Of a stretch of 64,000 nucleotides of DNA, positions 15,832 to 64,000 are shown piece after piece. The translations under genes were made by a program, and so were the position numbers. Source of the DNA: Bacteroidota bacterium (lineage in GTDB: Bacteria > Bacteroidota > Bacteroidia > AKYH767-A > OLB10); the NCBI GenBank assembly GCA_024638565.1, contig JAHEKC010000001.1, positions 10,245 to 74,244 of the forward strand. The letters run 5' to 3'. The notes under the pieces are model-generated. The model was not told the origin of the DNA, ran no database searches, and was given only the letters and a program-made list of their open reading frames with translations. Each line of letters begins with the position of its first letter. Positions within the stretch are counted from its first letter, which is position 1.

Positions 15832-16040
15832 CATGGCAGTGCGTAAAGATCGATAATCGTCATAAATACCGGTGGCCCGGCAAACCATTCACCCGTGGCC
15901 CCGGAGGAATGGATCCCATCCTGTTCCGCAGTGTGCGCCACCTGGCAAAACCGCCAATGGCACGCCTGTTCCCTGTGTGCCCCGTTCTCAAAGGACAGCT
16001 GGCAACGGGCATCGTTAATGGCAGGCGGACGCTTTTAAAT

Positions 16041-16078
16041 GACTGCCGACTGCCGGTAAAAGACTGCCGACTGCCGGT
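16041..16078. repeat. Heptamer array (GACTGCC)x2-GGTAAAA-(GACTGCC)x2
   Basis: A perfect 17-nt direct repeat, GACTGCCGACTGCCGGT, is separated by AAAA. It lies in the spacer upstream of ridA and 3' of the lipoprotein gene. Confidence 0.6.
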
Positions 16079-33092: not shown

Positions 33093-34055
33093 ATGGGCAT
33101 ATTACGACTGGAAGGCAAAGAGGCCTCCTACCTTTTCGACCCCTCGAACCCCGAAACGCTGCTGCGGGAGAACGGTAAGTTCGGGAATGTATACGCCGGC
33201 GCAAGAGAGTCAGACAAGACACCTGTGGTGATCAAGCATCTGAACCCCGAGCTGCTAAGTCACCCCATGTCACTGCTGCAGTTCCGGTTTGAGGCCGACA
33301 TGGTCCTGGATCACCCGGTGCTGAGAAATACGCTGGAATATGCGCACACCGGGAAAGACCATTTCCTGATCCAGGAGTATGTCAAGGGCTGGGAGCTGAA
33401 AGTCTTTCTCATGCAATACGAGAAATACCGCACCGTGTCTTTTGTGCTGCAGTGCATGCTCCGGATCCTGGATGCCCTTGAATACCTGCATGGGAAGGAT
33501 GTCGTGCATTGTGATATCAAGCCGTCGAATATCCTTGTGGAAGAGCCACCCAAGGGGGAGAAGGTGGACAGGCAGCATCCACCGGTCAGGCTCATCGACC
33601 TGGGAAATGCCAGGACGCCGCTTGCGCAGTTCATGACGACGGTAAGGCCGTTCTCATTTATCTACTCGCCGCCAGAACAGGTGTTGCATCATTATTCCCT
33701 GGTTTGCCCAGCCAGCGACCTTTCCGCACTCGCCATCACCACCTATGAACTGATCACGGGGAAGAATGCCTTCGGCACCTATCATCCCGAGAAACTCATG
33801 CATATGCAGGTGGCAGGCAACCTTTTGCCAAATCCCGACATCCCGGAACCGCTTTTCAGGATCCTGGCAAAGGCGTCGGCACGCATATCGTTACCAAGGC
33901 CACCCAACCAGATGAACCGTGAGGAGCATTTCAAGCTTGCGCAGGACGGGATTGCCATGCGCTACCAGTCGGCCGATGAACTCAAATCCGCGTTCCGGGA
34001 ATTCCTGGAAAGCCATCCGGCGAAAAAGGGGGTGTTCGCCAGGCTGTTCGGGTAG
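33093..34055 (+). CDS. Serine/threonine protein kinase (Hanks-type)
   Basis: The product has a Gly-rich loop region and a VIKHL lysine. The catalytic loop HCDIKPSNILV and a DLGNA (DFG-like) motif are present. Confidence 0.75.
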   Translation: MGILRLEGKEASYLFDPSNPETLLRENGKFGNVYAGARESDKTPVVIKHLNPELLSHPMSLLQFRFEADMVLDHPVLRNTLEYAHTGKDHFLIQEYVKGWELKVFLMQYEKYRTVSFVLQCMLRILDALEYLHGKDVVHCDIKPSNILVEEPPKGEKVDRQHPPVRLIDLGNARTPLAQFMTTVRPFSFIYSPPEQVLHHYSLVCPASDLSALAITTYELITGKNAFGTYHPEKLMHMQVAGNLLPNPDIPEPLFRILAKASARISLPRPPNQMNREEHFKLAQDGIAMRYQSADELKSAFREFLESHPAKKGVFARLFG

Positions 34056-38650: not shown

Positions 38651-38690
38651 GGCCAGTATCGGGTTTCGATATGTTTCGCTGAACATGTGC

Positions 38691-48452: not shown

Positions 48453-51400
48453 TTATTTTCTTAATACAATATACCCTGTCCTTGGCTTGGTGCCATTGTT
48501 TAAGTCCAGGATGTAAAAGAATGTACCGTTGGGCAGTTGTTTGCCGATATAAATCCCACTAACATTTGAAGTTCCATTCCAGTTATTTTCATAATCCGTC
48601 GCTTTAAAGATCAACGCTCCCCAACGGTTGTAGATCCAAAGCTTGTTTCCAGGAAATTTCTCAATCCCGGGGATAGTGAATTCATCGTTATATCCGTCAT
48701 TATTGGGTGAGTAGCCAGACGGAATGACGAGCGAGTCACATACCACGCTGACAAGCACTTCACCGGTGGCACGGCAACCGTCCTCATTAGTGACCTCCAC
48801 GGTATAGGTTGTAGAGACGGTAGGGGAGGCAACCGGATTTTCGACATCCGTACGGTCAAGGCCTGTAGCCGGGCTCCAGGAATAGCTTACACCACCACTG
48901 GCAAGCAGCGGCGCGCTTTCGCCCGGGCAAAGGATCACGTTCGGGCTGACTGAAAGATTCTGTACCACAGATACCGTCACTTCGATTGAATCGGAGATGA
49001 AATACCCGCACGCATGATTGATGGCTACCGTATAGATTCCGGCAGCCGGAGTGGTAAAATCGGTATATACAGCACCTCCGAGGGCTTCACCATCTAGAAA
49101 CCACTGGTAGGTGGCGCCTTGAATAGAATCCGCAACCAGGGTTACGAGATCTCCGGAGCATATAGTCGTGGGTCCGGTTGCATTGGCACTGAATACCGAA
49201 TTATCTCCAACTGTATAAGTTTCACGGGTAGTACATCCGTTCCCTTCTGTTACAATGACCGTGTAGCTTCCATGCGGTATATTTGAAAGGTTCTGTGTTG
49301 TCGCACCATTGCTCCATTGGAACAAGAAAGGACCTATGCCTGTCGTTATACTGACATTAACGCTTCCAGAAATATTATCAAGACAATTTGCATTGGCAAT
49401 TGTGCCCGTTATGACGATGGCGGGTGGGGGTTGCAGTACGGAGGCTATGAAGCTTTTCGTGCATCCGTTGCCGTCTGTTACCGTTACCGTATACCCTTCA
49501 GCCGGTATATTGCTAAGGTTTTGCGTAGTTGCACCAGTACTCCACATATATGAATAAGGTGGCGTACCGCCGGCCGCAGTCAGATTGATTGTCGCAGTGC
49601 TGTCTCCGAAACAGGATAAGCCGGGATCGATTACTATTGAAGTGGATAATTCAAGCGGCTGCGTGACCGAACCGGTAGTATTTGCCTTGCAGCCATTTGC
49701 GTCGGTAACCGTGACAAGGTAGGTTCCGGGCGGTAATCCACTCAAGTCTTCGGTAATTACACTATTGCTCCACTTGAATGAATAAGGTGGTGTGCCCATA
49801 GATACTGTCAGGTCAATGGAGCCGTTGTTATTCCCGAAGCAATCGATGTTTTGTGAGACGGCACCTGCGGAAAGTGCGCCTGCGGGCTGTGTCACAGATG
49901 CTATAACGGTGTCCACACATCCATTGGCATCTGTTATTGTGACGCTATACGTACCAGAAAGCAAGCCTGAAACAGAATTGATGGTATCACCGTTGCTCCA
50001 TGAGTATGAATAGGGAGAAGTGCCTCCGTTGACTGAGAGACTGATGGAGCCGGTAGCTTCTGAGAAGCAAAGTACATTTTGCAAATCTGTGATTGCCGGA
50101 GAAAGCGGGGCAGGCTCACTAATGTACACAGGCTGCGATGTGGTACAGCCATTTGAATCTGTTATAATAACGTTGTATGTGCTGGCTGACAAGCCGCCAA
50201 TGTTTTGAGTTGTATTCCCATTGTTCCAGGCATATGAATACGGGCTCGTGCCGCCTGTTACGGAAACTGTAACAGAACCGTCTGATCCTGAAAAACAACT
50301 TACATCCTGTTGGGTTTGGACCAGTGACGACAGCGGTGCAGCCGGTTCCAGGATGGAATGAGTTTGTTCAACCGTGCAATTATTTGCATCGGTTACGGTG
50401 ACACTATATGTTCCTGGAGCCAGCGGACTGATGTTTTGAGCAGTCGACCAATTGCTCCAGCTGAATGTATAGGGTGCTGTGCCCTGGGATACTATTAGGC
50501 TTATGGCTCCGTTGCCGTTGCCGAAACAGTCAATATTCTGAACCTGCGCGGAAACAGCCAGGGCGCCTGCAGGCTGTAAAACAGTTGATGTACTTGAATC
50601 AGTGCATCCGTTAGCGTCTGTAACTATTACCGTATAGTTGCCAGTTGCCAGACCGCCGATATCCTCAGTGGTGGCGCCATTGCTCCAGTTGAAAGCAAAC
50701 GGAGGTGTTCCACCGCTGACTGTTAGATCAATTAAGCCATCATTGCCGCCATTGCAGCTCACGTTTTGTAAAGTGGCTACACTAGCGGCCAGCATGGAGG
50801 CGGGCTGGGTGACATTGGCCGTTTGGAGGCCAGTACATCCATTGAGGTCTGTGATCGTTACAGTGTAGTTTCCGGCAGAAAGATTGTTAACATTTTGAGT
50901 AGTACTTCCTGTACTCCAGTTGTATGAATACGGACTTGTTCCTCCATTGACCGATAGTATTATTGATCCATCGCTTCCGGAATGGCAACCAACACTTTGT
51001 ACAGCTGATACCGAAATAGAAAGTGGTGATGCCGGCTCGCCTATGGATTGCGTGGCTTGTGCAGTACAATTGTTAGCATCGGTTACGGTGACAGTATAAA
51101 TACCGGCTGAAAGACCAGAGATGCCCTGAGCGGTGTCACCTGTATTCCATAAAAAGGAGTATGGGCTGGTACCTTGCGAAACAGAAAGATTAATGGCGCC
51201 ACTGTTTGCCCCGAAACATGAAACATCTTGTACGGATGATACTGATAAGCTTAGTGCGCCGGAAGGTTGACTTATGATAACCGTTGCAGAGTCGATGCAA
51301 CCATTCGCATCGGTAACTGTAAGGGTGTAGCTGCCGGAACTAAGGTTGTTTATGTCTTCGGTGGTAGATCCGTTGCTCCAGAGAAATGAATAAGGGGGTG

Positions 51401-54400
51401 TGCCTTGTGTAACAGTTAGATCCGCCGAGCCATCCGATCCCCCACTACAGTTTACGTCTTGTGATGAATCGACAGTAATGCTGAGTAGACTTGATGGCTG
51501 GCTGATAACAACATTTTGATTTGCAACACATCCGTTGGAATCGGTAACCGTAACCGTATAAGCCCCTGAAGGCAGATTGCTTATATCCTCTGTGGTTTGT
51601 CCGCTACTCCAGGAGAATGTAAAAGGAGGTGTGCCGTTGCTGACAGTCAGGTTGATAGCTCCATTTGAACCGCCAAAGCAGGATACGTTCTGAAGAATAT
51701 CGATGCTTGCCGTCACCAACGGTACTGGAAGTAAAAGCATTGAGGTGATGGAAAAGGTACAGCCATTGGCATCAGTGGCCGTAACCGTGTATGTACCCTT
51801 TCCGAGATTTATCAGATCCTCAGAAGTAGCGCCGGTATTCCAGAGGAACGTATAAGGCGGTGAGCCCCCATTGATTGTTACATCAATGGAACCCGTATTA
51901 CCGGCGGTGCACGAAGCGTTTTCAAAGACAACTGCACTGCCGGTGATGGAATCTGCAGGTTGTGATACGGTTGCCGACTGTTGAAGCGTACAGCCATTCG
52001 CATCAGTAACTGTAACGGTATAGTTGCCTGGTAAAAGAGAGCTAATATTTTGGGTAGTTTCACTATTGCTCCAAACGTATGAATATGGTTGAGTTCCCTG
52101 TGCGACTGTCAGGTTGATCGAACCATTTGCGTTGCCATAACAATCAACATCCTGCACTGATGGAGTTGCTGACAGGTTCCCGGCAGGTTGCGTGATTGTA
52201 ACAGTAATAGAATCGATGCATCCGTTTGCATCCAAAACTGTAGCCGTATACTGGCCTGCGGGGATTCCGGACAAATCTTCAGTAGTAGCTCCTGTACTCC
52301 AGTTGACAGTATAAGGGGCCGTACCGCCACTTACAGTCAGATCGATATCACCATCCGTACCAGAAAAACAGTTTACATTTTGAGCGGAACTTATCGCAGT
52401 TGTTAGTGCGAACAGAGGTTCGGATATTGTGAAGGACTGGGTGTCTGTGCAGCCGAGTGTATCCGTAACAGTGATGATGTAATTACCTGTTGGCAGGTTA
52501 CTTATGTTCTGGGTAGTGCTTCCATTGCTCCAGTTATATGTAAATGGAAAAGTTCCCCCGGTTACCTGCAGAATGATAGAGCCGTCAGAACCCGAATGGC
52601 AATTTACATTTTGAACTGTTGTAGCTGATGCGGCAATTGAAGCGGCCGGCTGTGAAATGACATATGAAAGTGAATCGAGACACCCGTTGAAATCAGCTAT
52701 CGTTACGACGTATGTGCCCGCTGCAATAGACGAGATGTCTTCAGTGGTGGCACCGTTACTCCAGTTAAATGTATACGGAGGTGTTCCGCCACCTACTGAA
52801 AGGTCAATTGACCCGTCATTCCCGGTGAAGCAACTCACGTTTTGAGCACCGGTAATACTTGAAAACATGGAGTCGGGTTCGGATACTGTGGCGTTCTGAA
52901 TGATGGCACAACCATTGGCATCTGTAACAGTGACTGTATAGCTACCGGCGGACAGGCTGGAAATATTCTGCGTTGTGACACCGTGGCTCCATGCAAAGGT
53001 GTATGGGCCCGTGCCCCCGTTTACGGAGATATTTACGGCCCCGTCAGATGCTGAGAAGCAATTAGCGTTTTGAATGGTGTTGATGCTGGCATTTAATGAT
53101 GCGGCCGGCTGGGATACGCTAACGTTCTGTCTTTCGGTACAGCCATTATTGTCAGTTACGGTTACGGTATAAGTACTGGCTGATAAAACGCTCAGGCTCT
53201 GTGCCGTTGCACCCGTGTTCCATATATAGGAATATGGCGGGACTCCTCCGGTGACAGCAACAGATGCAGCCCCGCTGTTATCACCAAAACAGGAGGCATT
53301 TGTTGAAGAGCTTGTTAGTGATAATGCAGCCGGCTGTGTGAGGATGACGCTGGTTGCGTCAGTGCAACCATTGGCATCCGTGACGGTTGCAGTATATGTT
53401 CCGGCGACCAGCCCCGTAACCGTTTGGTTATTAGATCCGGTTGACCATTGGAAATTGAAGGGTGCCGTGCCTCCCGAAATGTTAAGGGATATTGAGCCGT
53501 TGTTGCCGTTAAAGCAGGAAACCTCGGAAGGAGATCCGGACACGGAAACCAGCGGAACCTGGTTGATGGTTACAGCCGTTGTCCCGGTACAGCCCATCTG
53601 GTCAGTAACAGTTACGACATAGTTGCCTGCGCCAAGCCCGGTAAGATCTTCTGTAGTTTGCCCATTGCTCCAGAGGAATGAATATGGCGGGAAGCCGAAG
53701 GTTACGGTAAGGTTAATTGAGCCCATAGAGCTGGGGCAGGCTAGATCCTCATTAGTAGCATTGAGTACCGGCCCGGAAACGGTTACTTCGCTCGAGCATG
53801 TATCTGTATATCCGGATGCGTTGACTACCACGTGTATGGTAAATCCTCCTGGGTTGTTTCCTGCAATTACATTGACAGATGACCCGGTATTGGATCCAGA
53901 AAAGGATGCCCCGGATACATTGTCCGACAGGAACCATGAATAATCAAATCCAATAAGGCTGTCAGATGTAAAGACCAGCGTGTCTGCCATGCAGGCTACG
54001 GACGGCCCTGTCAGGCCACAGCCATCCAGCGTCATTACGGCGGTAGCAGACAGAGAGCGATCCCCGGTACCTTTCCCTCCATCTACTTCAACTATGGTCA
54101 TATGATAAGCTGAACCAGGAATTCCTGAGATTGAATATTGGGGGCACCAGTCGTGCGTAGTTGCCAGATGCCCGCCCCAGACAAATACCACGTGTGGATT
54201 CAGGGTGGTGAAAGTGACCTGCATCAATTGCTCCCCTCCTGATTGGTTAAGGTCGGGTACGTTTAGGTACTGGATATCAGTAATGGCCGTTCCGTTGAAC
54301 ATGGTCATCAGTCGTTCTGATGGCGGTAACTTATTGAAAGCTGTTTTCGGCTCCAGTAAACCTGTGCATGTTACCAGCTTGTTTGACGGTGGTTCTGGGA

Positions 54401-54905
54401 TGGGGTACGTAATAGGGGTAGGGTCTATTCCGACCTGGTCTGCCAGCGGATCAATTGTTTCAGCCGGATGCCAGAAAAGTCCGTGAGGTGAAAGTCTGTC
54501 ATAGTGTGTAAGGAAATCAAAAGCGTGTTTATCTCCTTTTTTTATGTCATATTCAATGATAAAATTATGTGTGCCGGGTGTGAGCCCCTTTAATATAAAC
54601 CGGTAGCTTGCGGACATGCCTTCCAAGTAGTGTGAATTGGATGTACCGGCATTGCCATTTGACCAATATGCAGGGGTAACAGGTGATAGTCGGCTCCCAT
54701 TCCTGATCTGTTCCAGCCTGAGGGTTTGTCCAAGAACGGACTGGCCACTCATCAATGCCAGTGCAATTATGGCCAGCAAGTGTCGAATCCGTACATGCGT
54801 AATAGATAGACACGTAATCAGTGCATATTGGATCTTCCTTGCGGCTAAGTTTAAGCCGAAATTTGAGGTTATGAATGGTTTTGGTGAAATCCTGGTACCG
54901 AGCAT
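48453..54905 (-). CDS. Giant (2150 aa) SprB-repeat cell-surface protein, paralogue of 41307-48428 with the same N-terminal domain type and a type-B T9SS CTD
   Basis: The N-domain (NGNAGTSNSHYLEGMSASYRF...EYDIKKGDKHAFDFLTHYDRLSPH) is homologous to the upstream giant protein. About 22 SprB repeats follow. The C-terminus is IPSGYSPNNDGYNDEFTIPGIEKFPGN...YIVLRK. The true start may be downstream of the ATG at 54905, because the ORF begins with a long leader before the signal peptide. Confidence 0.8.
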   Translation of the reverse strand: MLGTRISPKPFITSNFGLNLAARKIQYALITCLSITHVRIRHLLAIIALALMSGQSVLGQTLRLEQIRNGSRLSPVTPAYWSNGNAGTSNSHYLEGMSASYRFILKGLTPGTHNFIIEYDIKKGDKHAFDFLTHYDRLSPHGLFWHPAETIDPLADQVGIDPTPITYPIPEPPSNKLVTCTGLLEPKTAFNKLPPSERLMTMFNGTAITDIQYLNVPDLNQSGGEQLMQVTFTTLNPHVVFVWGGHLATTHDWCPQYSISGIPGSAYHMTIVEVDGGKGTGDRSLSATAVMTLDGCGLTGPSVACMADTLVFTSDSLIGFDYSWFLSDNVSGASFSGSNTGSSVNVIAGNNPGGFTIHVVVNASGYTDTCSSEVTVSGPVLNATNEDLACPSSMGSINLTVTFGFPPYSFLWSNGQTTEDLTGLGAGNYVVTVTDQMGCTGTTAVTINQVPLVSVSGSPSEVSCFNGNNGSISLNISGGTAPFNFQWSTGSNNQTVTGLVAGTYTATVTDANGCTDATSVILTQPAALSLTSSSTNASCFGDNSGAASVAVTGGVPPYSYIWNTGATAQSLSVLSASTYTVTVTDNNGCTERQNVSVSQPAASLNASINTIQNANCFSASDGAVNISVNGGTGPYTFAWSHGVTTQNISSLSAGSYTVTVTDANGCAIIQNATVSEPDSMFSSITGAQNVSCFTGNDGSIDLSVGGGTPPYTFNWSNGATTEDISSIAAGTYVVTIADFNGCLDSLSYVISQPAASIAASATTVQNVNCHSGSDGSIILQVTGGTFPFTYNWSNGSTTQNISNLPTGNYIITVTDTLGCTDTQSFTISEPLFALTTAISSAQNVNCFSGTDGDIDLTVSGGTAPYTVNWSTGATTEDLSGIPAGQYTATVLDANGCIDSITVTITQPAGNLSATPSVQDVDCYGNANGSINLTVAQGTQPYSYVWSNSETTQNISSLLPGNYTVTVTDANGCTLQQSATVSQPADSITGSAVVFENASCTAGNTGSIDVTINGGSPPYTFLWNTGATSEDLINLGKGTYTVTATDANGCTFSITSMLLLPVPLVTASIDILQNVSCFGGSNGAINLTVSNGTPPFTFSWSSGQTTEDISNLPSGAYTVTVTDSNGCVANQNVVISQPSSLLSITVDSSQDVNCSGGSDGSADLTVTQGTPPYSFLWSNGSTTEDINNLSSGSYTLTVTDANGCIDSATVIISQPSGALSLSVSSVQDVSCFGANSGAINLSVSQGTSPYSFLWNTGDTAQGISGLSAGIYTVTVTDANNCTAQATQSIGEPASPLSISVSAVQSVGCHSGSDGSIILSVNGGTSPYSYNWSTGSTTQNVNNLSAGNYTVTITDLNGCTGLQTANVTQPASMLAASVATLQNVSCNGGNDGLIDLTVSGGTPPFAFNWSNGATTEDIGGLATGNYTVIVTDANGCTDSSTSTVLQPAGALAVSAQVQNIDCFGNGNGAISLIVSQGTAPYTFSWSNWSTAQNISPLAPGTYSVTVTDANNCTVEQTHSILEPAAPLSSLVQTQQDVSCFSGSDGSVTVSVTGGTSPYSYAWNNGNTTQNIGGLSASTYNVIITDSNGCTTSQPVYISEPAPLSPAITDLQNVLCFSEATGSISLSVNGGTSPYSYSWSNGDTINSVSGLLSGTYSVTITDANGCVDTVIASVTQPAGALSAGAVSQNIDCFGNNNGSIDLTVSMGTPPYSFKWSNSVITEDLSGLPPGTYLVTVTDANGCKANTTGSVTQPLELSTSIVIDPGLSCFGDSTATINLTAAGGTPPYSYMWSTGATTQNLSNIPAEGYTVTVTDGNGCTKSFIASVLQPPPAIVITGTIANANCLDNISGSVNVSITTGIGPFLFQWSNGATTQNLSNIPHGSYTVIVTEGNGCTTRETYTVGDNSVFSANATGPTTICSGDLVTLVADSIQGATYQWFLDGEALGGAVYTDFTTPAAGIYTVAINHACGYFISDSIEVTVSVVQNLSVSPNVILCPGESAPLLASGGVSYSWSPATGLDRTDVENPVASPTVSTTYTVEVTNEDGCRATGEVLVSVVCDSLVIPSGYSPNNDGYNDEFTIPGIEKFPGNKLWIYNRWGALIFKATDYENNWNGTSNVSGIYIGKQLPNGTFFYILDLNNGTKPRTGYIVLRK

Positions 54906-55115: not shown

Positions 55116-57320
55116 TTACTTGTTGGAAGAAAGATCTTTGGCGACCCTGATCACCCTGATTTCAGTCCTCCGGTTCTTTTGATGGTCTTCTTCTGAACAG
55201 ATTGATCCATCCGCACACTTGTTCATCAGCATCGTTTCGCCTCCCCATTCCATTTTTTCGACGACAGACCTTGAAGTGCCGTTATTGACAAGCCACTGGG
55301 TAGCGGCCTCGGCCCTGTGCCTGGAGAGTCTTTCGTTGTATGCATTTGTCCCCCTGGAATCACAATAGGAGTTCATCAGCAGGCGCACCTCGGGGTTTGC
55401 TTTTACGAACTGCAACACCTCCATCATTGTTTTGACAGCGTCTGGCCGGATATTGGATCTGTCGAAGTCATAGTAGATGATCTTGTACCAGCGGGCGAAT
55501 TTGCCCACGTCAGCACCTTTCTTCAGGTCTACGACAACCTCGAAGTCCTTGTCAATCTTCTGCCCCACGTTGGACAGTGTGACCACCTTGGGATCGTAGC
55601 CGCTTTTCATGATGATCAGCGCAATCTGCAGGTCGCGCTCAAGGGGTTGCATGTATACGCCTTTCTTGTCCGTCTTGCCCAGGGTCTTGTTCGTCTGATC
55701 AATGCCGATAACGGCATTGTGCAGCATCTTTTTCGTTTCCCTGTCGCGTACTTTCACGATCAGGTTATAAACCCGCTCCTGCTTCTTGATTTCCAGCTTG
55801 ACGAAGAAATCCTCGGACGGGAAGTAGTCTATGGTTTTGAAGTGTTCAAAGTCCCGTGAATAGGATTCCTTGGTGCCTTCGACAGTATATTCCTCGTCAT
55901 AGTCTATAGGAAACTCGAACATGGCATCTTCACCGGCAGTCATCTCCAGGACATCGTTGCTGCTGTTCCGAAGCTTTACATGTGCCATGGGGATGGGCTT
56001 GTCCGTTCCTTCCTCGACCACGATACCGCGCACCTTGAGCATGCGGCGGAAGCTGTATATATCATCATCAACCCCTTTAGACTCTCGGTTTGAGCTGAAA
56101 TAGCCGTAATGCGTCTTGGTATTGAATATGATGCCGAAGTCGTCCTCACTGGAGTTCACCGGCGCGCCCATGTTTTTCGCATCCATCCAGGTCGTGTCCT
56201 TCTGGTGCGTGTAAAAGACATCCAGTCCGCCCAGGACATCACGGCCGTTGGAAGCAAAGAGGAACGTGCCGTCAGCATGCTGGTATGGGAACAGCTCGTC
56301 ACCCTCCGTATTGATCGCTTCACCCATGTTGACAGGTGCATTCCATTCTGCGTTAGCGCTGTCACGGTCGCAGTAGTAAAGGTCCATGCCACCCTGGCCG
56401 CCCGGCATATCGGAGGTGAAATAAAGCCGGAGGTTGTCAGGCGAAACAAAGGCGTGTGCACAATTGAATTCGTCGTTGTTATACTTGAAGGGCGTGAGGT
56501 CCTTCCAGTTTCCATCCTTCATGCGGGCATGGAAGATCTTGAGCTTAACGACTGCGTCTTCACTGGTGAAGACCTTTTTCTTGACCACGTTATTTCGTGT
56601 GATATATACTTCCCCGCCATCCTGGCTGAACGCCACCGGGCCATCATTGTATTTGATCTGTACATTGTCCGAGAACGGTTCCACCTCCAGGAAGGTATTC
56701 CCTTTTCCTTTTGAGTAATACAGGTTCAGGTAGTTTTCATTGGTCCAGGAATGTTTTTTCTCAATCAGGTCTTTCGAGGGCCGTGCGGAGGAGAAAACCA
56801 TTCCCTCGTCGAAAAATGCCGGGGCAAAGTCCGCATTCGGGGAATTGATGATCAGCTTCCAGACGAAATAATTTGCCGTGTCCTTGAAGTAGGAAGGGAT
56901 ATTCTCGATCGTCTTAAGCGCGAACATCCCGCGCCTGTCGTCAGGGTTCAACTCGGCATAATCCCGGATCCAGGCTTTGGCGTCGTTGTATTTTCCGTTC
57001 TTCATCAGGGCCTGCCCGTAGTAATACTTATGGATGGGCTCATGGTCCTTGGTCTTGACCACTTCGCCATACCAGAATTCGGCCTTTTCACTGCGACCGG
57101 TCTTGCGGTAGCAATGAGCCAGCTTGACCATGGCGGCGGTGAAATCGGGATGCTTTTCCAGGATCTTCTCGTATGCCATGATGGCCTCGCTGTATGCGAG
57201 CTGGTCATACAATTCATCCGCTTTTTCCAGTTGCTTGCTCTGCCCGAATCCGTAATGCGCCACCAGTGAAAATATGGCTGTGAGCAGAATCAGGTGTGCG
57301 ATCGTCTTTTTCATGAGCAT
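55116..57320 (-). CDS. OmpA-family protein (N-terminal TPR, central beta-propeller-like repeats, C-terminal OmpA/MotB peptidoglycan-binding domain)
   Basis: The signal peptide is followed by TPR helices. Repeated Tol-type (PD40-like) motifs follow (FSPDNLRLYFTSD, FASNGRD). The C-terminal OmpA domain contains YCDSRGTNAYNERLSRHRAEA. The gene sits immediately downstream of the PorP/SprF gene. Confidence 0.8.
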   Translation of the reverse strand: MLMKKTIAHLILLTAIFSLVAHYGFGQSKQLEKADELYDQLAYSEAIMAYEKILEKHPDFTAAMVKLAHCYRKTGRSEKAEFWYGEVVKTKDHEPIHKYYYGQALMKNGKYNDAKAWIRDYAELNPDDRRGMFALKTIENIPSYFKDTANYFVWKLIINSPNADFAPAFFDEGMVFSSARPSKDLIEKKHSWTNENYLNLYYSKGKGNTFLEVEPFSDNVQIKYNDGPVAFSQDGGEVYITRNNVVKKKVFTSEDAVVKLKIFHARMKDGNWKDLTPFKYNNDEFNCAHAFVSPDNLRLYFTSDMPGGQGGMDLYYCDRDSANAEWNAPVNMGEAINTEGDELFPYQHADGTFLFASNGRDVLGGLDVFYTHQKDTTWMDAKNMGAPVNSSEDDFGIIFNTKTHYGYFSSNRESKGVDDDIYSFRRMLKVRGIVVEEGTDKPIPMAHVKLRNSSNDVLEMTAGEDAMFEFPIDYDEEYTVEGTKESYSRDFEHFKTIDYFPSEDFFVKLEIKKQERVYNLIVKVRDRETKKMLHNAVIGIDQTNKTLGKTDKKGVYMQPLERDLQIALIIMKSGYDPKVVTLSNVGQKIDKDFEVVVDLKKGADVGKFARWYKIIYYDFDRSNIRPDAVKTMMEVLQFVKANPEVRLLMNSYCDSRGTNAYNERLSRHRAEAATQWLVNNGTSRSVVEKMEWGGETMLMNKCADGSICSEEDHQKNRRTEIRVIRVAKDLSSNK

Positions 57321-57343: not shown

Positions 57344-58300
57344 TTAGAAGTAACGCGGCGTAACCACCTTGTCCTTCTCGAATGAGAAGTCGTACCCGAT
57401 GGTGAATTCATGCGTGCCACTGTTGTAATTATTAAGCTTGGTAAGCGTGTAGTCGTAAGAATATCCGAAGCGAAGCTGCTTGGTAAGCTGGTACTGGGTA
57501 AGTACCGACACGGCATCACCGGTCCTGTATGCCATGCCAAACCAGAATACCTCCTTGAACAGGGCATTAAGCGTGATATCGGCTTCCAGCGGTGCGCCGG
57601 ATACGGCAGCAACCATGAGGGAAGGCTTCATCTTCACACTTTCGTTGATGTCGAAAACGTAGGCCGAGAACAGGTAATAGTGCCAGTTCTGAAGGTTGAC
57701 CTTGTTCGCTGTCGCTTTCTGGGTCACCGGGTCTATCTTGTTTTCGAGAAACCGCGGGATAGACAAGCCGGCATAGAAACGGTCCGTATGGAAATAGGTG
57801 CCGAATCCGAAGTTGGGCATAAGCTTGTTCTGGATGTTCCTTGAGAATTCAGGATCGTTGGGATCGATGGTGATCACATCGAGCAGCTTTTCCTCCACGT
57901 TGATAATGCCACCCTGCAGTCCCATGGACAGGATGCCCTGGTCGCTGACCTGCATGTGATGGGCGTAGCTGACGAATGCCGCCGTCTGGTTGGTGACCCC
58001 TATCCTGTCGTTCAGGATGCTGATGCCCACCCCGTTCGTTTCACGGGAAAAGGGCATGTGGAAGTTGACAGTGGCGGTTTTCGGCGCTCCCTCGATGCCT
58101 ACCCACTGGTCCCTGTAAAGCAGGGAAGCGGCCGCGAAGCCCCTTGAACCTGCATAGGCCGGGTTGATGAACATCTCGTTGTTCATGTACTGTGTGAAAT
58201 GGGGCTCGTACTGGGCCTCTGCCCTTTCCGATGCCATCACACTCATGGCCAGCGCCGCTACAGCTATGATTCCTTTCCTGAAATGCTGTTTCATATACAT
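57344..58300 (-). CDS. PorP/SprF family type IX secretion system membrane protein
   Basis: The 318-aa product has a signal peptide and a beta-barrel with a C-terminal F. The motifs FNPAYAG, DQW and GAPxTxxxN are characteristic of PorP/SprF. The gene sits directly downstream of a type-B CTD gene, as sprF does relative to sprB. Confidence 0.8.
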   Translation of the reverse strand: MYMKQHFRKGIIAVAALAMSVMASERAEAQYEPHFTQYMNNEMFINPAYAGSRGFAAASLLYRDQWVGIEGAPKTATVNFHMPFSRETNGVGISILNDRIGVTNQTAAFVSYAHHMQVSDQGILSMGLQGGIINVEEKLLDVITIDPNDPEFSRNIQNKLMPNFGFGTYFHTDRFYAGLSIPRFLENKIDPVTQKATANKVNLQNWHYYLFSAYVFDINESVKMKPSLMVAAVSGAPLEADITLNALFKEVFWFGMAYRTGDAVSVLTQYQLTKQLRFGYSYDYTLTKLNNYNSGTHEFTIGYDFSFEKDKVVTPRYF

Positions 58301-58374: not shown

Positions 58375-61300
58375 TCAATACCTCAATACGATATATCCCT
58401 GTAAAGGTTTTGTATTGTTGTTGAGGTCAAGCACATAGAAATAGGTGCCTGCCGGGACGCGTTTCCCGATATAGATGCCTGATACATTGCTGATTCCGTC
58501 CCAGTTACTCTTGTAGTCATTCGACTTGTATATCAGGTTGCCCCACCGGTTGTAAATCCAGATCCGGTTGCCGGGATAGTGATCGATTCCCTTGATCACG
58601 AAGGCATCGTTTATGCCGTCGTCGTTTGGTGAGTATCCCGAGGGGATGATCAGTGTGTCGCATTCTACCGTTACCATGACCTGTGCTGTTGCCGTGCATC
58701 CTTCGAAATTGGTAACCTGTACCATGTACGTGGTTGTTTGCAGCGGGCTGGCAACAGGATTGGGCACGTCATCGTAATCCAGGCTGGTCGCCGGTGTCCA
58801 GATATAACTGATACCTCCGCTGGCAAACAGCTGCGTGCTTTCTCCTGCACAAATGGTCACATCCGGATCAATCTGCACCGACGGACCAGGATTTACCGTG
58901 ATCTCGATCGGCTGCGAATCGAAGGTGCCACAGGGTCCGGTGATGGTGACCGTGTATATACCCGCCGTGGGGGTAGTGAGCACTGGGCTGTTTTCACCTG
59001 CAAGTGCCGTGCCATCCAGGTACCACTGGTAGGTTACATTGTCAATTGAGTCGGCAATGAGGGTGGTCACATCACCGGCGCAGAGCACGCCTGGTCCGTC
59101 TGCATTGGCATTGAATACCGAAAGGTCGTTGACCGTATAGGTGCCCGTGGTTTCACATCCGTTGACATCCGTGATCTTCACGGTGTAGGTGCCCTGTGGC
59201 AGGCCTGTGAGATTTTGCGTGGTATCGCCATTGCTCCAACTGTATGCATATGGGCTTGTACCTCCAGCCGGGTTGATCGAAACCGAACCAGTGATGCCAT
59301 ACAGGCAATTGGACGAGGTCGTACTGCCAGTCACGGCAAGGGAAGCGGAAGGCTGTGTGATCGTTACGGTTGCCGTGGTGGTACAACCGTTGGCATCCGT
59401 GATGGTTACCGTATAGGTGCCTGCCGGAAGGTTGGAAATATCTTCCGTGATTTCCCCGGTACTCCATACATAGGTATAGGGCGCGGTGCCGTCCTGGACC
59501 GTCAGGTCTATAGAGCCGTCGCTGCCTGCATGGCAGTTTACCTGCTGGGATACGGTGGCGTTCGCATTGAGCGCCGCCGCGGGCTGGGTAACCGTTGCCG
59601 TGGCGGTGACCGTACATCCGTTGGCATCGGTGATGGTGACCGTATAGGTTCCTGCTGTGAGGTTCGAGATGTCCTCGATGGTGTCACCGTTGCTCCACAC
59701 GTAAGCATATGGTGGTGTGCCATCACCCACGGTAAGGTCAATAGAGCCGTCATTTCCTGCATGGCAGTTCACCTGCTGGGTGACGGCAGTGCTGGCATTG
59801 AGTGCAGCGGCAGGCTGCGTGACGCTTGCCGTCGCGGTGACCGTACAGCCATTTGCATCGGTAATGGTGACCGTGTAGGTGCCGGCTGAGAGATTTGAAA
59901 TGTCTTCCAGCGTATCGCCATTGCTCCATACGTAGGTATACGGCGGCGTGCCGTCACCCACTGTAAGGTCTACCGAACCGTCATTCCCGGCATGGCAGTT
60001 CACCTGCTGGGTGACAGCGGCACTGGCATTCAGTGCCGCGGCGGGCTGGGTAACTGACGCGGATGCGGTGACCGTACATCCGTTGGCGTCAGTGATGGTA
60101 ACTGAATAAGTTCCGGCTGCCAGGTTGGCGATATCCTCAATCGTTGCACCATTGCTCCATACATAAGCATAAGGCGGCGTGCCGTCACCTACGGTCAGAT
60201 CGATGGATCCGTCATTGCCCGCATGGCAGTTCACCTGCTGGGTGACAGCAGCACTGGCAATGAGCGATGCGGCCGGCTGGGTCACGGATGCAGATGCAGT
60301 GATCGTACAGCCATTGGCATCAGTGATGATCACTGAATAAGTTCCGGCTGCCAGGTTGGCGATATCCTCGATCGTGTCACCATTGCTCCATACATAAGCA
60401 TAAGGAGGCGTGCCGTCACCCACGGTCAGGTCAATAGAGCCGTCAACCCCGGCATGGCAGTTCACCTGCTGGGTGACAGCAGCACTGGCACTGAGCGATG
60501 CGGCCGGCTGGGTCACGGATGCAGATGCAGTGACCGTACAGCCATTGGCGTCAGTAATGGTGACCGAATAAATCCCGGCCGCCAGGTTGGCAATGTCCTC
60601 GATCGTGTCGCCATTGCTCCACGCGTAGGTGTAGGGCGGTGTACCGTCGCCCACGGTCAGGTCAATGGAGCCGTCAACCCCGGCATGGCAGTTCACCTGC
60701 TGGGTGACAGCGGCACTGGCATTCAGTGCCGCAGCGGGCTGGGTAATCGTTACCGTGGCCATCGAATTACATCCGTTCACGTCCAGGATTGTGACCGTGT
60801 AGGTGCCGGCGGAAAGGCCGCTGATGTCCTCGGTCGTGTCGCCGTTGCTCCAGGTATAGGTGTAGGGCAGCGTACCGCCGTTGACAGTCAGGTTGGCGGC
60901 CCCGTTAGCGCCGCTGTGACAGCTCACCTGCTGTGTGGCGGAGACACTAGAGGCGAGTGCACCGGCCGGCTGCTGGATGGTGGCAGTGACACTGCTGGTG
61001 CAGCCGTTGATATCGGTGATCGTAACGGTATAGGTGCCGGCCGAAATCCCTGAAAGATCTTCCAGTGTGGAACCCGTGCTCCACAGGAAGGAATAGGGCT
61101 GCGTGCCGCCCGATGCGGTCAGGTCGATCGCACCGTTATTTCCGCTGAAGCATGAGATATTGGCGGTTACCGTGGCGCTGCTTGTGAGCGGTGCGACCGG
61201 CTGTCCGATCGATGCAATTTGCGTGAACGTACACCCGTTGGCGTCTGTGATCGTAACCGTGTAGGCTCCTGCCGCAAGGTTTGAAATGTCCTCGGTTGTT

Positions 61301-64000
61301 ACGCCATTGCTCCATGCAAAAGTATAAGGGATAGTACCCCCGGCAACGGTCAGGTCAATAAACCCGTTGGCGCCACCGTGACAGAATACATCCTGTGAGC
61401 TGGCAACGCCGGCGTTGAGTGCAGCGGCAGGCTGGCTTACCGTGCCGGTCTCCACGATCGTGCAGCCGTTGGCATCGGTTACGGTAACCGTATAGGTGCC
61501 GGATGTAAGTCCGGTGATATCCTGGGCCGTAGCGCCTGTACTCCAGTTATAGGTATACGGGGGTGTGCCGTTGGTGACCGTCAGGTCAATAGAGCCGTCG
61601 CTACCCGCATGGCAGTTTACATTTTGGGATGTGGCGGCAAATGCATTCAACTCGGCGGCAGGCTGTGTCACGGTAGCCGTGGCTGTGGTCACACAGCCAT
61701 TGGCATCCGTAACGGTAACCGTATAGGTGCCTGCGGCCAGGTTGCCAATATCTTCCGTGTTCGCGCCGGTGCTCCACGCGAATGTATAGGGGGCTGTGCC
61801 GTCGCCAACCGTCAGGTCGATCGATCCGTCATTACCCGCATGGCAGTTCACCTGCTGGGATACGGAAGCACTTGCGCTCAGTGCAGCGGCAGGCTGGGTG
61901 ACCGATGCGGTTTGCTCTGCCGTACAGCCGTTGGCGTCTGTGACCGTTACCGTGTAGGATCCGGCGGCAAGTCCACTGATGTCTTCTGTGTTGGCGCCTG
62001 TATTCCAGCTGAAGGTGTACGGTGCCGTGCCGTCACTGACCGTAAGATCGATGGATCCGTTGTTGCCTGCATGACAGCTTACCTGCTGTGAAACGGACAG
62101 GCCGGCATTCAATGCAGCAGCAGGCTGGGTTACCGTGGCCGCCGCGGTAGTAACACAACCGTTGGCGTCGGTAACGGTAACGGTGTAGGTGCCGGATGCC
62201 AGGCCTGTGATGTTCTGTGAGGTCTGCCCGTTGCTCCAGCTGAATGCGTAAGGCGGTGTGCCGTCCACAACCTGCAGGTCGATGTGACCGTCACTGCCTG
62301 CATGGCAACTCACATTTTGTGATGCGGTAGCACCCGCGTTGAGGGCGCCTGCAGGCTGCGTGATGGTAACGGAGGCAGTGGCATTGCAGCCGTTTACATC
62401 CACAATGGTAACCGTATAGGTGCCTGCTGCAAGCCCGCTTACATCTTCCGTGTTGGCACCGTTGCTCCAGGTGTAGGAATAGGGTTGGGTTCCGCCGGTA
62501 ACGGTCAGGTTCGCCGAGCCGTTTGCGCCACTGTAGCAGCTCACCTGCTGGGTGGCGGAAAGGCTCGTGGCCAGTGCACCCGCAGGTTGCTGGATGGTTT
62601 CGGTTGAGCTGCTGGTGCAGCCGTTGGCGTCTGTAACTGTTACGGTATAAGTGCCTGCCGAAACACCGGACAGGTCCTCCTGGGTGCTGCCGGTGCTCCA
62701 GAGATAGGTATAGGGTTGTGTGCCGCCTGACGCAGTCAGGTCAATGGCCCCGTTGTTCCCGCTGAAACAGGAAATATTGGACGTCACCGAGGTGCTCGTG
62801 GAAAGGGAGGCAACCGGTTCCGTGATACTTGCAATTTGTGAGAAGGTACAGCCATTCGCGTCCGTGATCGTAACGGCATAGTTGCCGGCGGACAGGCCGG
62901 AAACGTCCTCCGAAGTTTCGCCGTTGCTCCATGCGTAAATGTATGGATAGGTGCCGCCCGTAACGGTCAGGTCAATGAATCCGTTGGCGCCGCCATGGCA
63001 GAAGACGTTCTGCGATGAGGAAACAGATGCCTGCAATGCTGCTGCCGGCTGGCTTACCGATCCGGTTGCGATGGTGCTGCAGCCGTTGGCATCCGTAATC
63101 GTCACAGTATAGGTACCGGTGGCCAGCCCGGAAAGATCTTCTGTATTGGCACCGGTACTCCAGTTGAAAGTGTAGGGGGCCGTACCCTGTGCAACGGTCA
63201 GGTCAATAGATCCGTTTGCACCGCCATGGCAGCTCACCTGCTGCGTGGTGGTGGCGGAGGCGCTGAGGGCACCTGCCGGCTGGGTGATCGTGGCCGAAGC
63301 AGTGGTCGTGCAACCGTTGGCATCGGTGACCAGTACCGTGTACGTGCCTGCAGCAAGATTGGACAGGTCCTTTGTAGAAATCCCGTTGCTCCAGCTGAAA
63401 TTATACGGGGCGGTACCCTGTGTAACCTCAAGGTCGATGGCACCATCAGCGCCGCTGTGACAGCTTACGTTCTGGGTGGTATTGATGCTGGCTGTCAGCG
63501 CGCCTGCCGGCTGTGTGACCGTAGCTGAAGCGATTGCCGTACAGCCGTTTGCATCAGTTACAGTCACGCTGTAACTGCCGGCCGAGAGGCTGTTGAGGTC
63601 TTCTGATGAAGCGCCGTTGCTCCAGCTGTACGAATATGGTGGGGTACCCTGGGTGACACCCAGGTCGATGGAACCATCCACGCCGCCGAAGCAGCTGACG
63701 GCCTGGCTTACGCCTATAGTAACGGATAATGCCCCGGCGGGCTGACTTACCGACTGGCTGGCAGAATAGGTACAGCCGTTGGCATCGGTGATCAGCACTG
63801 TGTAGACACCGGTTGACAGCCCGGATATATCCTCGCTGTTGTCATTGTTGCTCCACTGGAATGAATAGGGCGCGGTGCCGCCGCTGACAGTAAGGTCTAT
63901 GGCGCCGTCGTCACCACCGAAACAGGATACTTGCTGCGAAGCAGTAGTGGAGGCGGACAACGCTGCTGACGGCTGGCTGACGGAAGCCTGCGCGGAAGCT
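58375..64000 (-). CDS. Giant SprB-repeat cell-surface protein with type-B T9SS CTD (C-terminal >1870 aa; N-terminus beyond the window end)
   Basis: The ORF is continuous to the window edge. It holds at least 22 SprB repeats, many near-identical at DNA level, then Ig-like modules. The C-terminus is IPSGYSPNDDGINDAFVIKGIDHYPGN...GYIVLRY. Confidence 0.85.
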   Translation of the reverse strand, partial: ASAQASVSQPSAALSASTTASQQVSCFGGDDGAIDLTVSGGTAPYSFQWSNNDNSEDISGLSTGVYTVLITDANGCTYSASQSVSQPAGALSVTIGVSQAVSCFGGVDGSIDLGVTQGTPPYSYSWSNGASSEDLNSLSAGSYSVTVTDANGCTAIASATVTQPAGALTASINTTQNVSCHSGADGAIDLEVTQGTAPYNFSWSNGISTKDLSNLAAGTYTVLVTDANGCTTTASATITQPAGALSASATTTQQVSCHGGANGSIDLTVAQGTAPYTFNWSTGANTEDLSGLATGTYTVTITDANGCSTIATGSVSQPAAALQASVSSSQNVFCHGGANGFIDLTVTGGTYPYIYAWSNGETSEDVSGLSAGNYAVTITDANGCTFSQIASITEPVASLSTSTSVTSNISCFSGNNGAIDLTASGGTQPYTYLWSTGSTQEDLSGVSAGTYTVTVTDANGCTSSSTETIQQPAGALATSLSATQQVSCYSGANGSANLTVTGGTQPYSYTWSNGANTEDVSGLAAGTYTVTIVDVNGCNATASVTITQPAGALNAGATASQNVSCHAGSDGHIDLQVVDGTPPYAFSWSNGQTSQNITGLASGTYTVTVTDANGCVTTAAATVTQPAAALNAGLSVSQQVSCHAGNNGSIDLTVSDGTAPYTFSWNTGANTEDISGLAAGSYTVTVTDANGCTAEQTASVTQPAAALSASASVSQQVNCHAGNDGSIDLTVGDGTAPYTFAWSTGANTEDIGNLAAGTYTVTVTDANGCVTTATATVTQPAAELNAFAATSQNVNCHAGSDGSIDLTVTNGTPPYTYNWSTGATAQDITGLTSGTYTVTVTDANGCTIVETGTVSQPAAALNAGVASSQDVFCHGGANGFIDLTVAGGTIPYTFAWSNGVTTEDISNLAAGAYTVTITDANGCTFTQIASIGQPVAPLTSSATVTANISCFSGNNGAIDLTASGGTQPYSFLWSTGSTLEDLSGISAGTYTVTITDINGCTSSVTATIQQPAGALASSVSATQQVSCHSGANGAANLTVNGGTLPYTYTWSNGDTTEDISGLSAGTYTVTILDVNGCNSMATVTITQPAAALNASAAVTQQVNCHAGVDGSIDLTVGDGTPPYTYAWSNGDTIEDIANLAAGIYSVTITDANGCTVTASASVTQPAASLSASAAVTQQVNCHAGVDGSIDLTVGDGTPPYAYVWSNGDTIEDIANLAAGTYSVIITDANGCTITASASVTQPAASLIASAAVTQQVNCHAGNDGSIDLTVGDGTPPYAYVWSNGATIEDIANLAAGTYSVTITDANGCTVTASASVTQPAAALNASAAVTQQVNCHAGNDGSVDLTVGDGTPPYTYVWSNGDTLEDISNLSAGTYTVTITDANGCTVTATASVTQPAAALNASTAVTQQVNCHAGNDGSIDLTVGDGTPPYAYVWSNGDTIEDISNLTAGTYTVTITDANGCTVTATATVTQPAAALNANATVSQQVNCHAGSDGSIDLTVQDGTAPYTYVWSTGEITEDISNLPAGTYTVTITDANGCTTTATVTITQPSASLAVTGSTTSSNCLYGITGSVSINPAGGTSPYAYSWSNGDTTQNLTGLPQGTYTVKITDVNGCETTGTYTVNDLSVFNANADGPGVLCAGDVTTLIADSIDNVTYQWYLDGTALAGENSPVLTTPTAGIYTVTITGPCGTFDSQPIEITVNPGPSVQIDPDVTICAGESTQLFASGGISYIWTPATSLDYDDVPNPVASPLQTTTYMVQVTNFEGCTATAQVMVTVECDTLIIPSGYSPNDDGINDAFVIKGIDHYPGNRIWIYNRWGNLIYKSNDYKSNWDGISNVSGIYIGKRVPAGTYFYVLDLNNNTKPLQGYIVLRY
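59529..60915 (-). repeat. Intragenic tandem array of six 231-bp (77-codon) near-identical repeat units
   Basis: The string CATGGCAGTTCACCTGCTGGGTGAC recurs at 59529, 59760, 59991, 60222, 60453 and 60684, exactly in phase. Unit-to-unit identity is about 88-95%. Confidence 0.8.

What the first reader, a model, noticed from the sequence alone, without database searches (positions are those of the whole stretch)
59529..60915. Six in-phase 231-bp near-identical tandem repeats inside the giant adhesin gene, a candidate length-variable region
Seen in sequence: the unit encodes one 77-aa SprB repeat (...[77 protein letters not shown]...). It recurs with exact 231-bp periodicity at about 88-95% nucleotide identity. 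That is far higher than the divergent repeats elsewhere in the same gene or in the paralogues.

Inference: this points to recent expansion by unequal recombination or slipped-strand events. The adhesin length is likely to vary between strains or subpopulations. The same region is also liable to be collapsed or expanded by short-read assembly.
Basis: seen in the sequence. Interest (0 to 1): 0.55.

Follow-up and report, generated by a model that had tools for sequence, protein, structure and literature searches.

The report
Old five-unit repeat run in adhesin
A giant bacterial surface-adhesin gene holds five neighbouring 77-residue repeat modules that are much more alike than its other modules, but their DNA has diverged so far that this is an old, stable duplication, common in this protein family, and not a fast-changing length switch.

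Summary
The minus-strand gene 58375..>64000 encodes at least 21 in-frame 77-aa SprB repeats with a 231-bp period and no indels. Only five units (59581-60735) form a high-identity cluster, not six. Their ten pairs are the ten most similar of 2016 SprB-unit pairs in the window (median 53%).

The expansion is not recent. Third codon positions carry 77% of the differences. Between units dS is 0.43-2.0 and dN/dS is 0.03-0.09. The longest shared exact tract is 54 bp. This points to an old, lineage-specific amplification of one unit subtype, kept alike by purifying selection, with one significant gene-conversion tract. Unequal recombination is possible but should be rare, and collapse in short-read assembly is unlikely.

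No conspecific sequence exists in any collection searched, so length variation could not be tested directly.

The gene is a T9SS type-B-CTD adhesin followed by PorP-like and PorE-like anchor genes. Each unit is predicted to be an Ig/PKD-like β-sandwich. Runs of highly similar SprB repeats are common among homologues, some far more uniform than this one. The finding is ordinary and of low interest.

The parts
59581..60735 (-). High-identity sub-array: five consecutive 231-bp / 77-aa SprB units. u15 60505-60735, u16 60274-60504, u17 60043-60273, u18 59812-60042, u19 59581-59811.
   Evidence: Pairwise 76-89% nt and 84-94% aa identity. These are the top ten of 2016 unit pairs in the window. dS 0.43-2.0, dN/dS 0.03-0.09.
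59350..59580 (-). Unit 20: same unit subtype but outside the cluster.
   Evidence: 71-74% nt and 71-79% aa identity to units 15-19.
60736..60966 (-). It is the copy of unit 7.
   Evidence: 61-66% nt to units 15-19, and 74% nt / 81% aa to unit 7.
61660..61890 (-). Unit 10: the closest relative of the cluster outside the C-terminal array.
   Evidence: 72-76% nt and 74-81% aa to units 15-20.
60736..61428 (-). Units 12-14: second copy of an older three-unit segmental duplication. The first copy is units 5-7 at 62353-63045, a lag of 7 units (1617 bp).
   Evidence: 5/12, 6/13 and 7/14 are 70-74% nt and 77-82% aa identical, with dS about 2-2.5.
58375..64000 (-). SprB-repeat adhesin gene, 5'-truncated by the window end: at least 1874 aa with 21 SprB units, an Ig-like region and a C-terminal sorting domain.
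   Evidence: Open frame from 63999 down to the stop at 58375-58377. Pfam SprB, Ig_7 and CHU_C hits.
58384..58650 (-). CHU_C / type-B T9SS C-terminal sorting domain (aa 1784-1872).
   Evidence: PF13585, 91 bits against a cut-off of 27.
57344..58300 (-). PorP/SprF-like outer-membrane protein gene, immediately downstream of the adhesin.
   Evidence: PF11751, 280 bits, full length.
55116..57320 (-). PorE-like gene (TPR + PD40 β-propeller + CarboxypepD_reg + OmpA).
   Evidence: Pfam hits. The domain order matches PorE as I recall it. PMC9143113 shows PorE binding PorP, and it postulates cell-wall anchoring of non-mobile type-B CTD proteins through PorP-PorE-like complexes.

Best explanation
The region encodes five consecutive Ig/PKD-like β-sandwich modules (SprB repeats). 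They sit in the C-terminal, membrane-proximal part of the stalk of a giant cell-surface adhesin. The adhesin carries a type-B C-terminal domain for export by the type IX secretion system. It is probably held on the outer membrane by the PorP-like and PorE-like proteins encoded just downstream.

The five modules arose by tandem amplification of one unit subtype within this lineage, most plausibly by unequal homologous recombination (inferred). The amplification happened long ago. Since then synonymous sites have run roughly half-way to fully towards saturation, while purifying selection kept the proteins 84-94% identical. Occasional short gene-conversion tracts have occurred.

Today the array is a stable structural segment that adds about five modules of length to the stalk. 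It is not a rapidly expanding or contracting contingency region.
For: Anatomy:
- 21 SprB hits, a CHU_C domain, and PorP_SprF and TPR/PD40/CarboxypepD_reg/OmpA neighbours.
- SprF binds the CTD region of SprB. PorP-PorE anchoring is proposed for non-mobile type-B CTD proteins (PMC9143113).

Fold:
- AlphaFold2 of unit 16 with a 60-unit alignment gives pLDDT 93.3 and six β-strands.
- Foldseek matches Ig/PKD domains, phage decoration Ig domains and the GhpA neck.
- C16 and C66 are invariant in all 60 units.

Age:
- 333 of 431 pairwise differences are at codon position 3.
- pS 0.33-0.70, dS 0.43-2.0, dN 0.04-0.10.
- The same-codon fraction at conserved residues is 0.47-0.73, against 0.40 expected at random and 0.43±0.07 for unrelated units.
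- Residual codon memory is 0.12-0.55. It is 0.08-0.16 for PorP and PorE against the closest relative found (PorP 89% aa, PorE fragment 84% aa) and 0.09-0.10 against the relative with 81% PorP identity.

Lineage-specific origin:
- No close counterpart exists elsewhere.
- Units 15-18 all best-match L029 unit 27.
- The orthologous partial unit in L031 is an outgroup: 76-80% aa, against 83-93% within the cluster.

Gene conversion:
- Units 15 and 18 share a concordant tract at unit positions 6-57 (p=0.0008). Units 16 and 17 give p=0.013.

Stability:
- The longest exact in-register tracts are 26-54 bp.
- The orthologue in a related species has no gaps over 4.9-11 kb in four samples at 99.2-99.4% identity. 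Its product is 4573 aa in all three samples that hold the whole gene.
Against: - No sequence from the same species or a close relative covers the array, so copy-number stability is inferred from divergence, not observed.
- Every pair in the cluster still shares at least one exact tract of 26 bp or more. From my own knowledge this is near the minimal length for RecA-dependent exchange in E. coli (about 23-27 bp), so rare unit loss or gain cannot be excluded.
- dS estimates above about 1 are unreliable because of saturation.
- The length-stable related orthologue (L029) lacks a comparable high-identity run, so it is only an indirect control.
- Surface localisation, T9SS export and PorP/PorE anchoring are inferred from homology.
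Confidence: 0.75

Rival explanations
1. The reader's hypothesis, a Periscope-type variable stalk. The array expanded recently and still gains and loses 231-bp units by intragenic recombination, so adhesin length differs between strains or subpopulations.
For: - Five tandem domains longer than 50 aa with at least 80% protein identity meet the operational screen used to find Periscope Proteins (PMC8201768; identities).
- A gene-conversion-like tract shows that the units have recombined.
- Exact tracts of 26-54 bp are shared.
- Authors working on Flavobacterium suspect repeat-number variation in repetitive T9SS adhesins (PMC9804748).
Against: - Nucleotide identity is only 76-89%, with dS 0.43-2.0. 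Even the youngest pair has lost about half of its synonymous codon identity.
- No two units are near-identical, so no duplication has happened for a long time.
- In the Periscope survey the extreme variation went with the highest repeat identity. Only 84 of 180 groups with highly identical repeats varied at all.
- A genuinely young SprB array looks different. In L028 the repeat-type units are 79-96% nt identical, with exact repeats up to 248 bp.
Confidence: 0.15
2. Ongoing concerted evolution. The units are ancient, but frequent gene conversion keeps homogenising them, and this explains their similarity better than a younger duplication does.
For: - Significant concordant tracts between units 15 and 18 and between 16 and 17.
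- The L031 orthologous unit is equidistant from all five units.
- L031's penultimate unit resembles window unit 10 (87% aa) more than unit 20 (76%), which indicates unit shuffling between lineages.
Against: - Conversion homogenises DNA as well as protein. Here amino-acid identity exceeds nucleotide identity, and synonymous sites are largely randomised in most pairs.
- Only one of ten pairs survives multiple-test correction.
Confidence: 0.07
3. Assembly artefact. The array is a misassembly, for example strain variants of fewer units concatenated, or a longer array collapsed.
For: - The identical PorP protein in the database is held on an unnamed 93.6-kb NCBI contig, which may be a metagenome-assembled genome.
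- Repeats are a classic source of assembly error.
Against: - The units differ by 11-24%, far more than strain variants would.
- The frame is intact across all 21 units with no indels.
- Differences are overwhelmingly synonymous.
- The longest exact repeat is 54 bp, shorter than usual reads and than the larger assembly k-mers.
Confidence: 0.03

Closest known systems
SprB and other type-B-CTD adhesins of the Bacteroidota type IX secretion system (Flavobacterium johnsoniae SprB/SprF; P. gingivalis PG1035/PorP/PorE)
   Same: SprB repeats (PF13573), a C-terminal CHU_C/type-B sorting domain and a cognate PorP/SprF-like gene immediately downstream. The protein is highly repetitive and giant.
   Different: A PorE-like gene follows the PorP-like gene here. 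F. johnsoniae sprB-sprF has no adjacent porE-like gene, and PMC9143113 proposes that PorE-linked type-B CTD proteins are non-mobile. The gene is one of five tandem paralogues. It is not shown to be the gliding-motility SprB orthologue.
Periscope Proteins (SasG, Aap, Rib, Sgo_0707 SHIRT arrays; PMC8201768, PMC9704523)
   Same: A single-chain surface protein whose stalk contains tandem, individually folding domains longer than 50 aa with at least 80% protein identity between neighbours.
   Different: The DNA identity is modest (76-89%) and synonymous sites are largely randomised. No length variation has been observed. Only 5 of at least 21 units are highly similar. SprB repeats and Bacteroidota are not mentioned in either paper.
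High-identity SprB arrays in other Bacteroidota (for example L028 from GCA_942492425.1, protein P0021; Chryseobacterium camelliae P0041/P0046; Lewinella marina P0055)
   Same: The same repeat family with runs of near-identical neighbouring units. Of 119 homologues, 17 have an adjacent pair at 80% aa or more, and 10 have runs of five or more units.
   Different: Those arrays can be much younger. The repeat-type units of P0021 are 79-96% nt and 91-100% aa identical, with exact repeats up to 248 bp. The window's array is an older, more diverged example.

Membership tests
T9SS type-B-CTD SprB-repeat adhesin | Tandem SprB repeats (PF13573) | tested here: met
   21 stretches, E 1.6e-216, 700 bits against a cut-off of 28.
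T9SS type-B-CTD SprB-repeat adhesin | C-terminal type-B sorting domain (CHU_C, PF13585) | tested here: met
   aa 1784-1872, 91 bits against a cut-off of 27.
T9SS type-B-CTD SprB-repeat adhesin | Adjacent cognate PorP/SprF-like gene | tested here: met
   57344-58300, PF11751 at 280 bits. The same synteny is seen in L001, L029 and L031.
T9SS type-B-CTD SprB-repeat adhesin | N-terminal Sec signal peptide, and actual secretion and surface display | not testable with these tools
   The 5' end of the gene lies beyond the window. Secretion needs an experiment.
SprB proper (gliding-motility adhesin orthologue) | sprB-sprF arrangement without an adjacent porE-like gene, and mobility along the cell surface | tested here: not met
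   A PorE-like gene (55116-57320) follows the PorP-like gene. PMC9143113 notes that sprB/sprF lack this neighbour. Mobility is not testable.
Periscope Proteins | [quoted passage not shown] | tested here: met
   Five 77-aa units at 84-94% aa identity. Criterion taken from PMC8201768.
Periscope Proteins | Long, highly similar DNA repeats that allow intragenic recombination | tested here: inconclusive
   76-89% nt identity, longest exact tract 54 bp, dS 0.43-2.0. This is weaker than in typical members, but the papers read give no numerical DNA threshold.
Periscope Proteins | Observed repeat-number variation between related strains | not testable with these tools
   No conspecific or near-relative sequence covers the array. 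The closest relative, at 89% PorP identity, is on a 1.8-kb contig.
Periscope Proteins | Repeats fold individually into a rod-like stalk | tested here: inconclusive
   A single unit is predicted with confidence as an Ig/PKD-like β-sandwich. The three-unit model without an alignment was poor (pLDDT 44), so rod geometry is inferred only.
Slipped-strand contingency locus (simple-sequence phase variation) | Short (about 1-10 bp), near-perfect tandem units whose number changes by replication slippage | tested here: not met
   The unit is 231 bp and the copies are 11-24% diverged.

The most novel reading that the evidence does not exclude
The five modules may be held nearly identical at the protein level for a specific repeated function. 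Examples would be a multivalent binding surface, or a glycosylated membrane-proximal stalk. The Bacteroidota O-glycosylation sequon D-[ST]-[AILVMT] occurs only in units 14, 15, 16, 18, 19 and 21. Their synonymous divergence could then be favoured because it protects the array against recombinational loss. That would make it a codon-scrambled, length-locked counterpart of a Periscope stalk.
Probability: 0.08. Interest if true: 0.4.

Novelty: new member of a known kind. Interest (0 to 1): 0.15.

Why it matters
It matters little beyond annotation. The result shows that protein-level similarity between tandem domains can badly overstate how recent and how unstable a repeat array is. Here the nucleotide and synonymous-site analysis reverses the inference. 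For this genome, the adhesin's C-terminal stalk can be treated as correctly assembled and probably fixed in length. If conspecific genomes did show copy-number differences, SprB-repeat T9SS adhesins would join the variable-length 'Periscope' class, which the two papers read do not yet list for Bacteroidota.

Tried and rejected
1. Searching for conspecific or close genomes in order to count units:
- Genome contigs with PorP gave a best match of 65%.
- Metagenome contigs gave a best match of 53%.
- A protein search with the array plus the C-terminus gave a best match of 57-58%.
- A protein search with PorP found the identical protein (P0121, NCBI contig of 93.6 kb). Its DNA look-up returned nothing. 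It also found relatives at 89% and 81% on contigs of 1.8 and 2.4 kb that stop short of the array.
- A search with the unique C-terminal 242 aa found nothing above 76%.

2. One-to-one orthology of P0003, P0004 and P0040 to this gene was rejected. Their C-terminal tails are equidistant from the three large paralogues.

3. The structure of three units without an alignment was unusable (pLDDT 44).

4. A sequence search of the PDB gave only marginal Ig-like hits.

5. Other features under the array:
- Rfam found nothing at 55-64 kb.
- Antisense ORFs of 199-224 aa overlap the array. I take them to be by-products of the repeat; they were not tested further.

6. Assembly artefact and slipped-strand mispairing were both considered and rejected, for the reasons given under the rival explanations and the membership test.

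Full report
**The observation**

The flagged interval lies on the minus strand inside a very large ORF. The ORF ends at 58375 and is still open at the window's last base, so the gene is 5'-truncated.

Its product is at least 1874 aa and consists of:
- 21 consecutive SprB repeats (Pfam PF13573, 21 stretches, E 1.6e-216);
- an Ig-like region;
- a CHU_C type-IX-secretion sorting domain.

The repeat period is exactly 77 codons for 20 units and 76 for the last. Tandem Repeats Finder reports the flagged stretch as 5.9-6.0 copies of a 231-bp unit with 80-81% matches and no indels. The in-phase 231-bp periodicity and the quoted peptide are therefore real.

**How similar the units are**

I cut the gene into units (unit n ends at 63969 − 231·(n−1)) and compared all of them.

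| Units | Coordinates | nt identity to cluster | aa identity to cluster |
|---|---|---|---|
| 15-19 (the cluster, among themselves) | 59581-60735 | 76-89% | 84-94% |
| 20 | 59350-59580 | 71-74% | 71-79% |
| 14 | 60736-60966 | 61-66% | 56-65% |

- Only units 15-19 stand out, so there are five similar units, not six.
Only two adjacent pairs reach 87-89%.
- The stated 88-95% is the protein-level figure, not the nucleotide one.
- The cluster is nevertheless exceptional. Its ten pairs are the ten most similar of 2016 pairs among 64 SprB units from the five paralogous genes in the window (median 53%, 99th percentile 71%).

**Age of the duplication**

- Of 431 pairwise differences among the five units, 333 (77%) are at third codon positions.
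- Nei-Gojobori estimates give pS 0.33-0.70, dS 0.43-2.0, dN 0.04-0.10 and dN/dS 0.03-0.09.

A test that does not depend on saturation corrections gives the same answer. At residues conserved between two units, the fraction using the same codon is 0.47-0.73. Random synonymous choice under this gene's codon usage gives 0.40, and unrelated units give 0.43 ± 0.07. The youngest pairs (16/17 and 15/16) have lost about half of their codon identity. The oldest pair (17/18) has lost nearly all of it.

For calibration, the residual codon memory compares as follows:

| Comparison | Residual codon memory |
|---|---|
| Pairs within the array | 0.12-0.55 |
| PorP and PorE fragment against the closest relative found (L034; PorP 89% aa, PorE fragment 84% aa) | 0.16 and 0.08 |
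| PorP and adhesin C-terminus against the next relative (L031; PorP 81% aa) | 0.09-0.10 |

The amplification is therefore younger than the rest of the gene and roughly coeval with, or younger than, those deep splits. It is still far older than strain-level divergence.

The ratio of amino-acid to synonymous change in the array resembles that of PorP. Ordinary purifying selection is enough to explain why protein identity exceeds DNA identity.

**Origin**

- No unit in the window's paralogues exceeds 68% aa identity to units 15-19, and none in the 120 best database homologues exceeds 62%.
- In the orthologue of a related species (L029, PorP 74%), units 15-18 all best-match one and the same unit, number 27, at 68-73%.
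- The partial orthologous unit in L031 is an outgroup. It is 76-80% aa identical to the five units, against 83-93% within the cluster.

This pattern fits amplification of one unit subtype within the window's lineage.

The gene also carries an older three-unit segmental duplication. Units 5-7 correspond to units 12-14 at 70-74% nt, a lag of seven units. The relative shows equivalent recurring subtypes.

A permutation test on runs of concordant polymorphic sites finds one significant mosaic tract, between units 15 and 18 at unit positions 6-57 (p=0.0008, ten pairs tested). A weaker one lies between units 16 and 17 (p=0.013). The units have therefore exchanged sequence at least occasionally.

- *Recombination.* The longest exact in-register tracts between cluster units are 26-54 bp. 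From my own knowledge, this is at or just above the minimal length for RecA-dependent exchange in E. coli, and sequence divergence of 10-20% strongly suppresses recombination. Unit gain or loss is possible but should be rare.
- *Slippage.* Slipped-strand mispairing does not apply to diverged 231-bp units.
- *Assembly.* Reads or k-mers longer than 54 bp resolve every unit, so collapse in short-read assembly is unlikely. The intact frame and mostly synonymous differences also argue that the assembly is correct.
- *Direct test.* A direct test of length variation was impossible. No conspecific or close sequence covers the array.
- *Indirect control.* The orthologue in the L029 species shows no gaps over 4.9-11 kb in four independent samples at 99.2-99.4% identity. 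Its product length is the same, 4573 aa, in the three samples that hold the whole gene. That gene lacks a comparable high-identity run.

**What the thing is and how it probably works**

AlphaFold2 on unit 16, using an alignment of 60 units from the window, gives a confident six-stranded β-domain (pLDDT 93.3). Foldseek matches it to Ig and PKD domains, to phage capsid-decoration Ig domains, and to the neck of the Aureispira grappling-hook protein GhpA. Two cysteines (C16 and C66) are invariant in all 60 units, which suggests an intradomain disulfide. This is an inference.

The adhesin gene is followed by a PorP/SprF-like gene (57344-58300) and by a gene with the TPR, PD40, CarboxypepD_reg and OmpA hits (55116-57320). 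I recall that set of domains as the architecture of PorE.

According to PMC9143113:
- the SprB CTD region binds SprF;
- PG1035 binds PorP, which binds PorE;
- type-B CTD proteins with adjacent PorP-like and PorE-like genes are proposed to be non-mobile and anchored to the cell wall.

By homology, the five modules form part of the membrane-proximal stalk of a T9SS-exported, PorP/PorE-anchored surface adhesin. Four further type-B-CTD SprB genes follow on the same strand, between 34910 and 54905.

**Comparison with what is known**

- The array passes that survey's operational screen: repeats longer than 50 aa with at least 80% identity.
- Its mechanistic premise, highly similar DNA, is only weakly met.
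- Its defining feature, observed length variation, is untested.

High-identity runs of SprB repeats are common. Of 119 homologues, 17 have adjacent units at 80% aa or more, and 10 have runs of five or more units. One array (L028, protein P0021) has repeat-type units 79-96% nt identical, with exact repeats up to 248 bp. That is what a genuinely young array in this family looks like.

**Verdict**

The window's array is an older, diverged example of an ordinary feature of a known adhesin family. Interest is low.

Noticed in passing
window 34910-64000, minus strand: Five consecutive genes for SprB-repeat proteins with CHU_C type-B sorting domains: 34910-38686, 38691-41279, 41307-48428, 48453-54905 and 58375->64000. 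One PorP-like and one PorE-like gene lie between the last two. The C-terminal tails of the paralogues are 51-66% identical.
   Followed up: partly
window 62353-63045 and 60736-61428: An older three-unit segmental duplication inside the adhesin gene. Units 5-6-7 correspond to units 12-13-14 at 70-74% nt and 77-82% aa, a lag of 1617 bp. The related orthologue L029 shows equivalent recurring unit subtypes (its units 19-20, 25-26 and 30-31), which suggests a conserved supra-repeat organisation.
   Followed up: partly
window 59119-60966 (units 14-21): The Bacteroidota O-glycosylation sequon D-[ST]-[AILVMT] (motif recalled from my own knowledge) occurs at the same loop position (residue 42-43) only in units 14, 15, 16, 18, 19 and 21. 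It is absent from units 1-13.
   Followed up: no
L031:139-369 compared with window 61660-61890 and 59350-59580: In the relative with 81% PorP identity, the penultimate SprB unit resembles window unit 10 (87% aa over 46 residues) more than the positionally equivalent unit 20 (76%). This suggests unit shuffling or conversion between lineages.
   Followed up: no
L028:1-13372 (GCA_942492425.1, contig CALOEQ010000002.1): Very long SprB arrays: a 450-bp period with 11.7 copies at 84% matches, and a 225-bp period with 34.7 copies. Exact repeats reach 248 bp. The coding region is broken into several called genes, possibly through frameshifts or assembly errors in a truly young array.
   Followed up: partly
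window 16036-16078: A 21-bp unit (TAAAAGACTGCCGACTGCCGG) repeated twice at 95% identity, next to the ORF at 16136-17713.
   Followed up: no
window 20545-24006 and 19083-20018: Two long ORFs (1153 aa on the minus strand and 311 aa on the plus strand) with no Pfam match at E ≤ 1e-5.
   Followed up: no
window 33093-34055, plus strand: A Ser/Thr protein-kinase-domain gene lies next to the end of the adhesin gene cluster.
   Followed up: no
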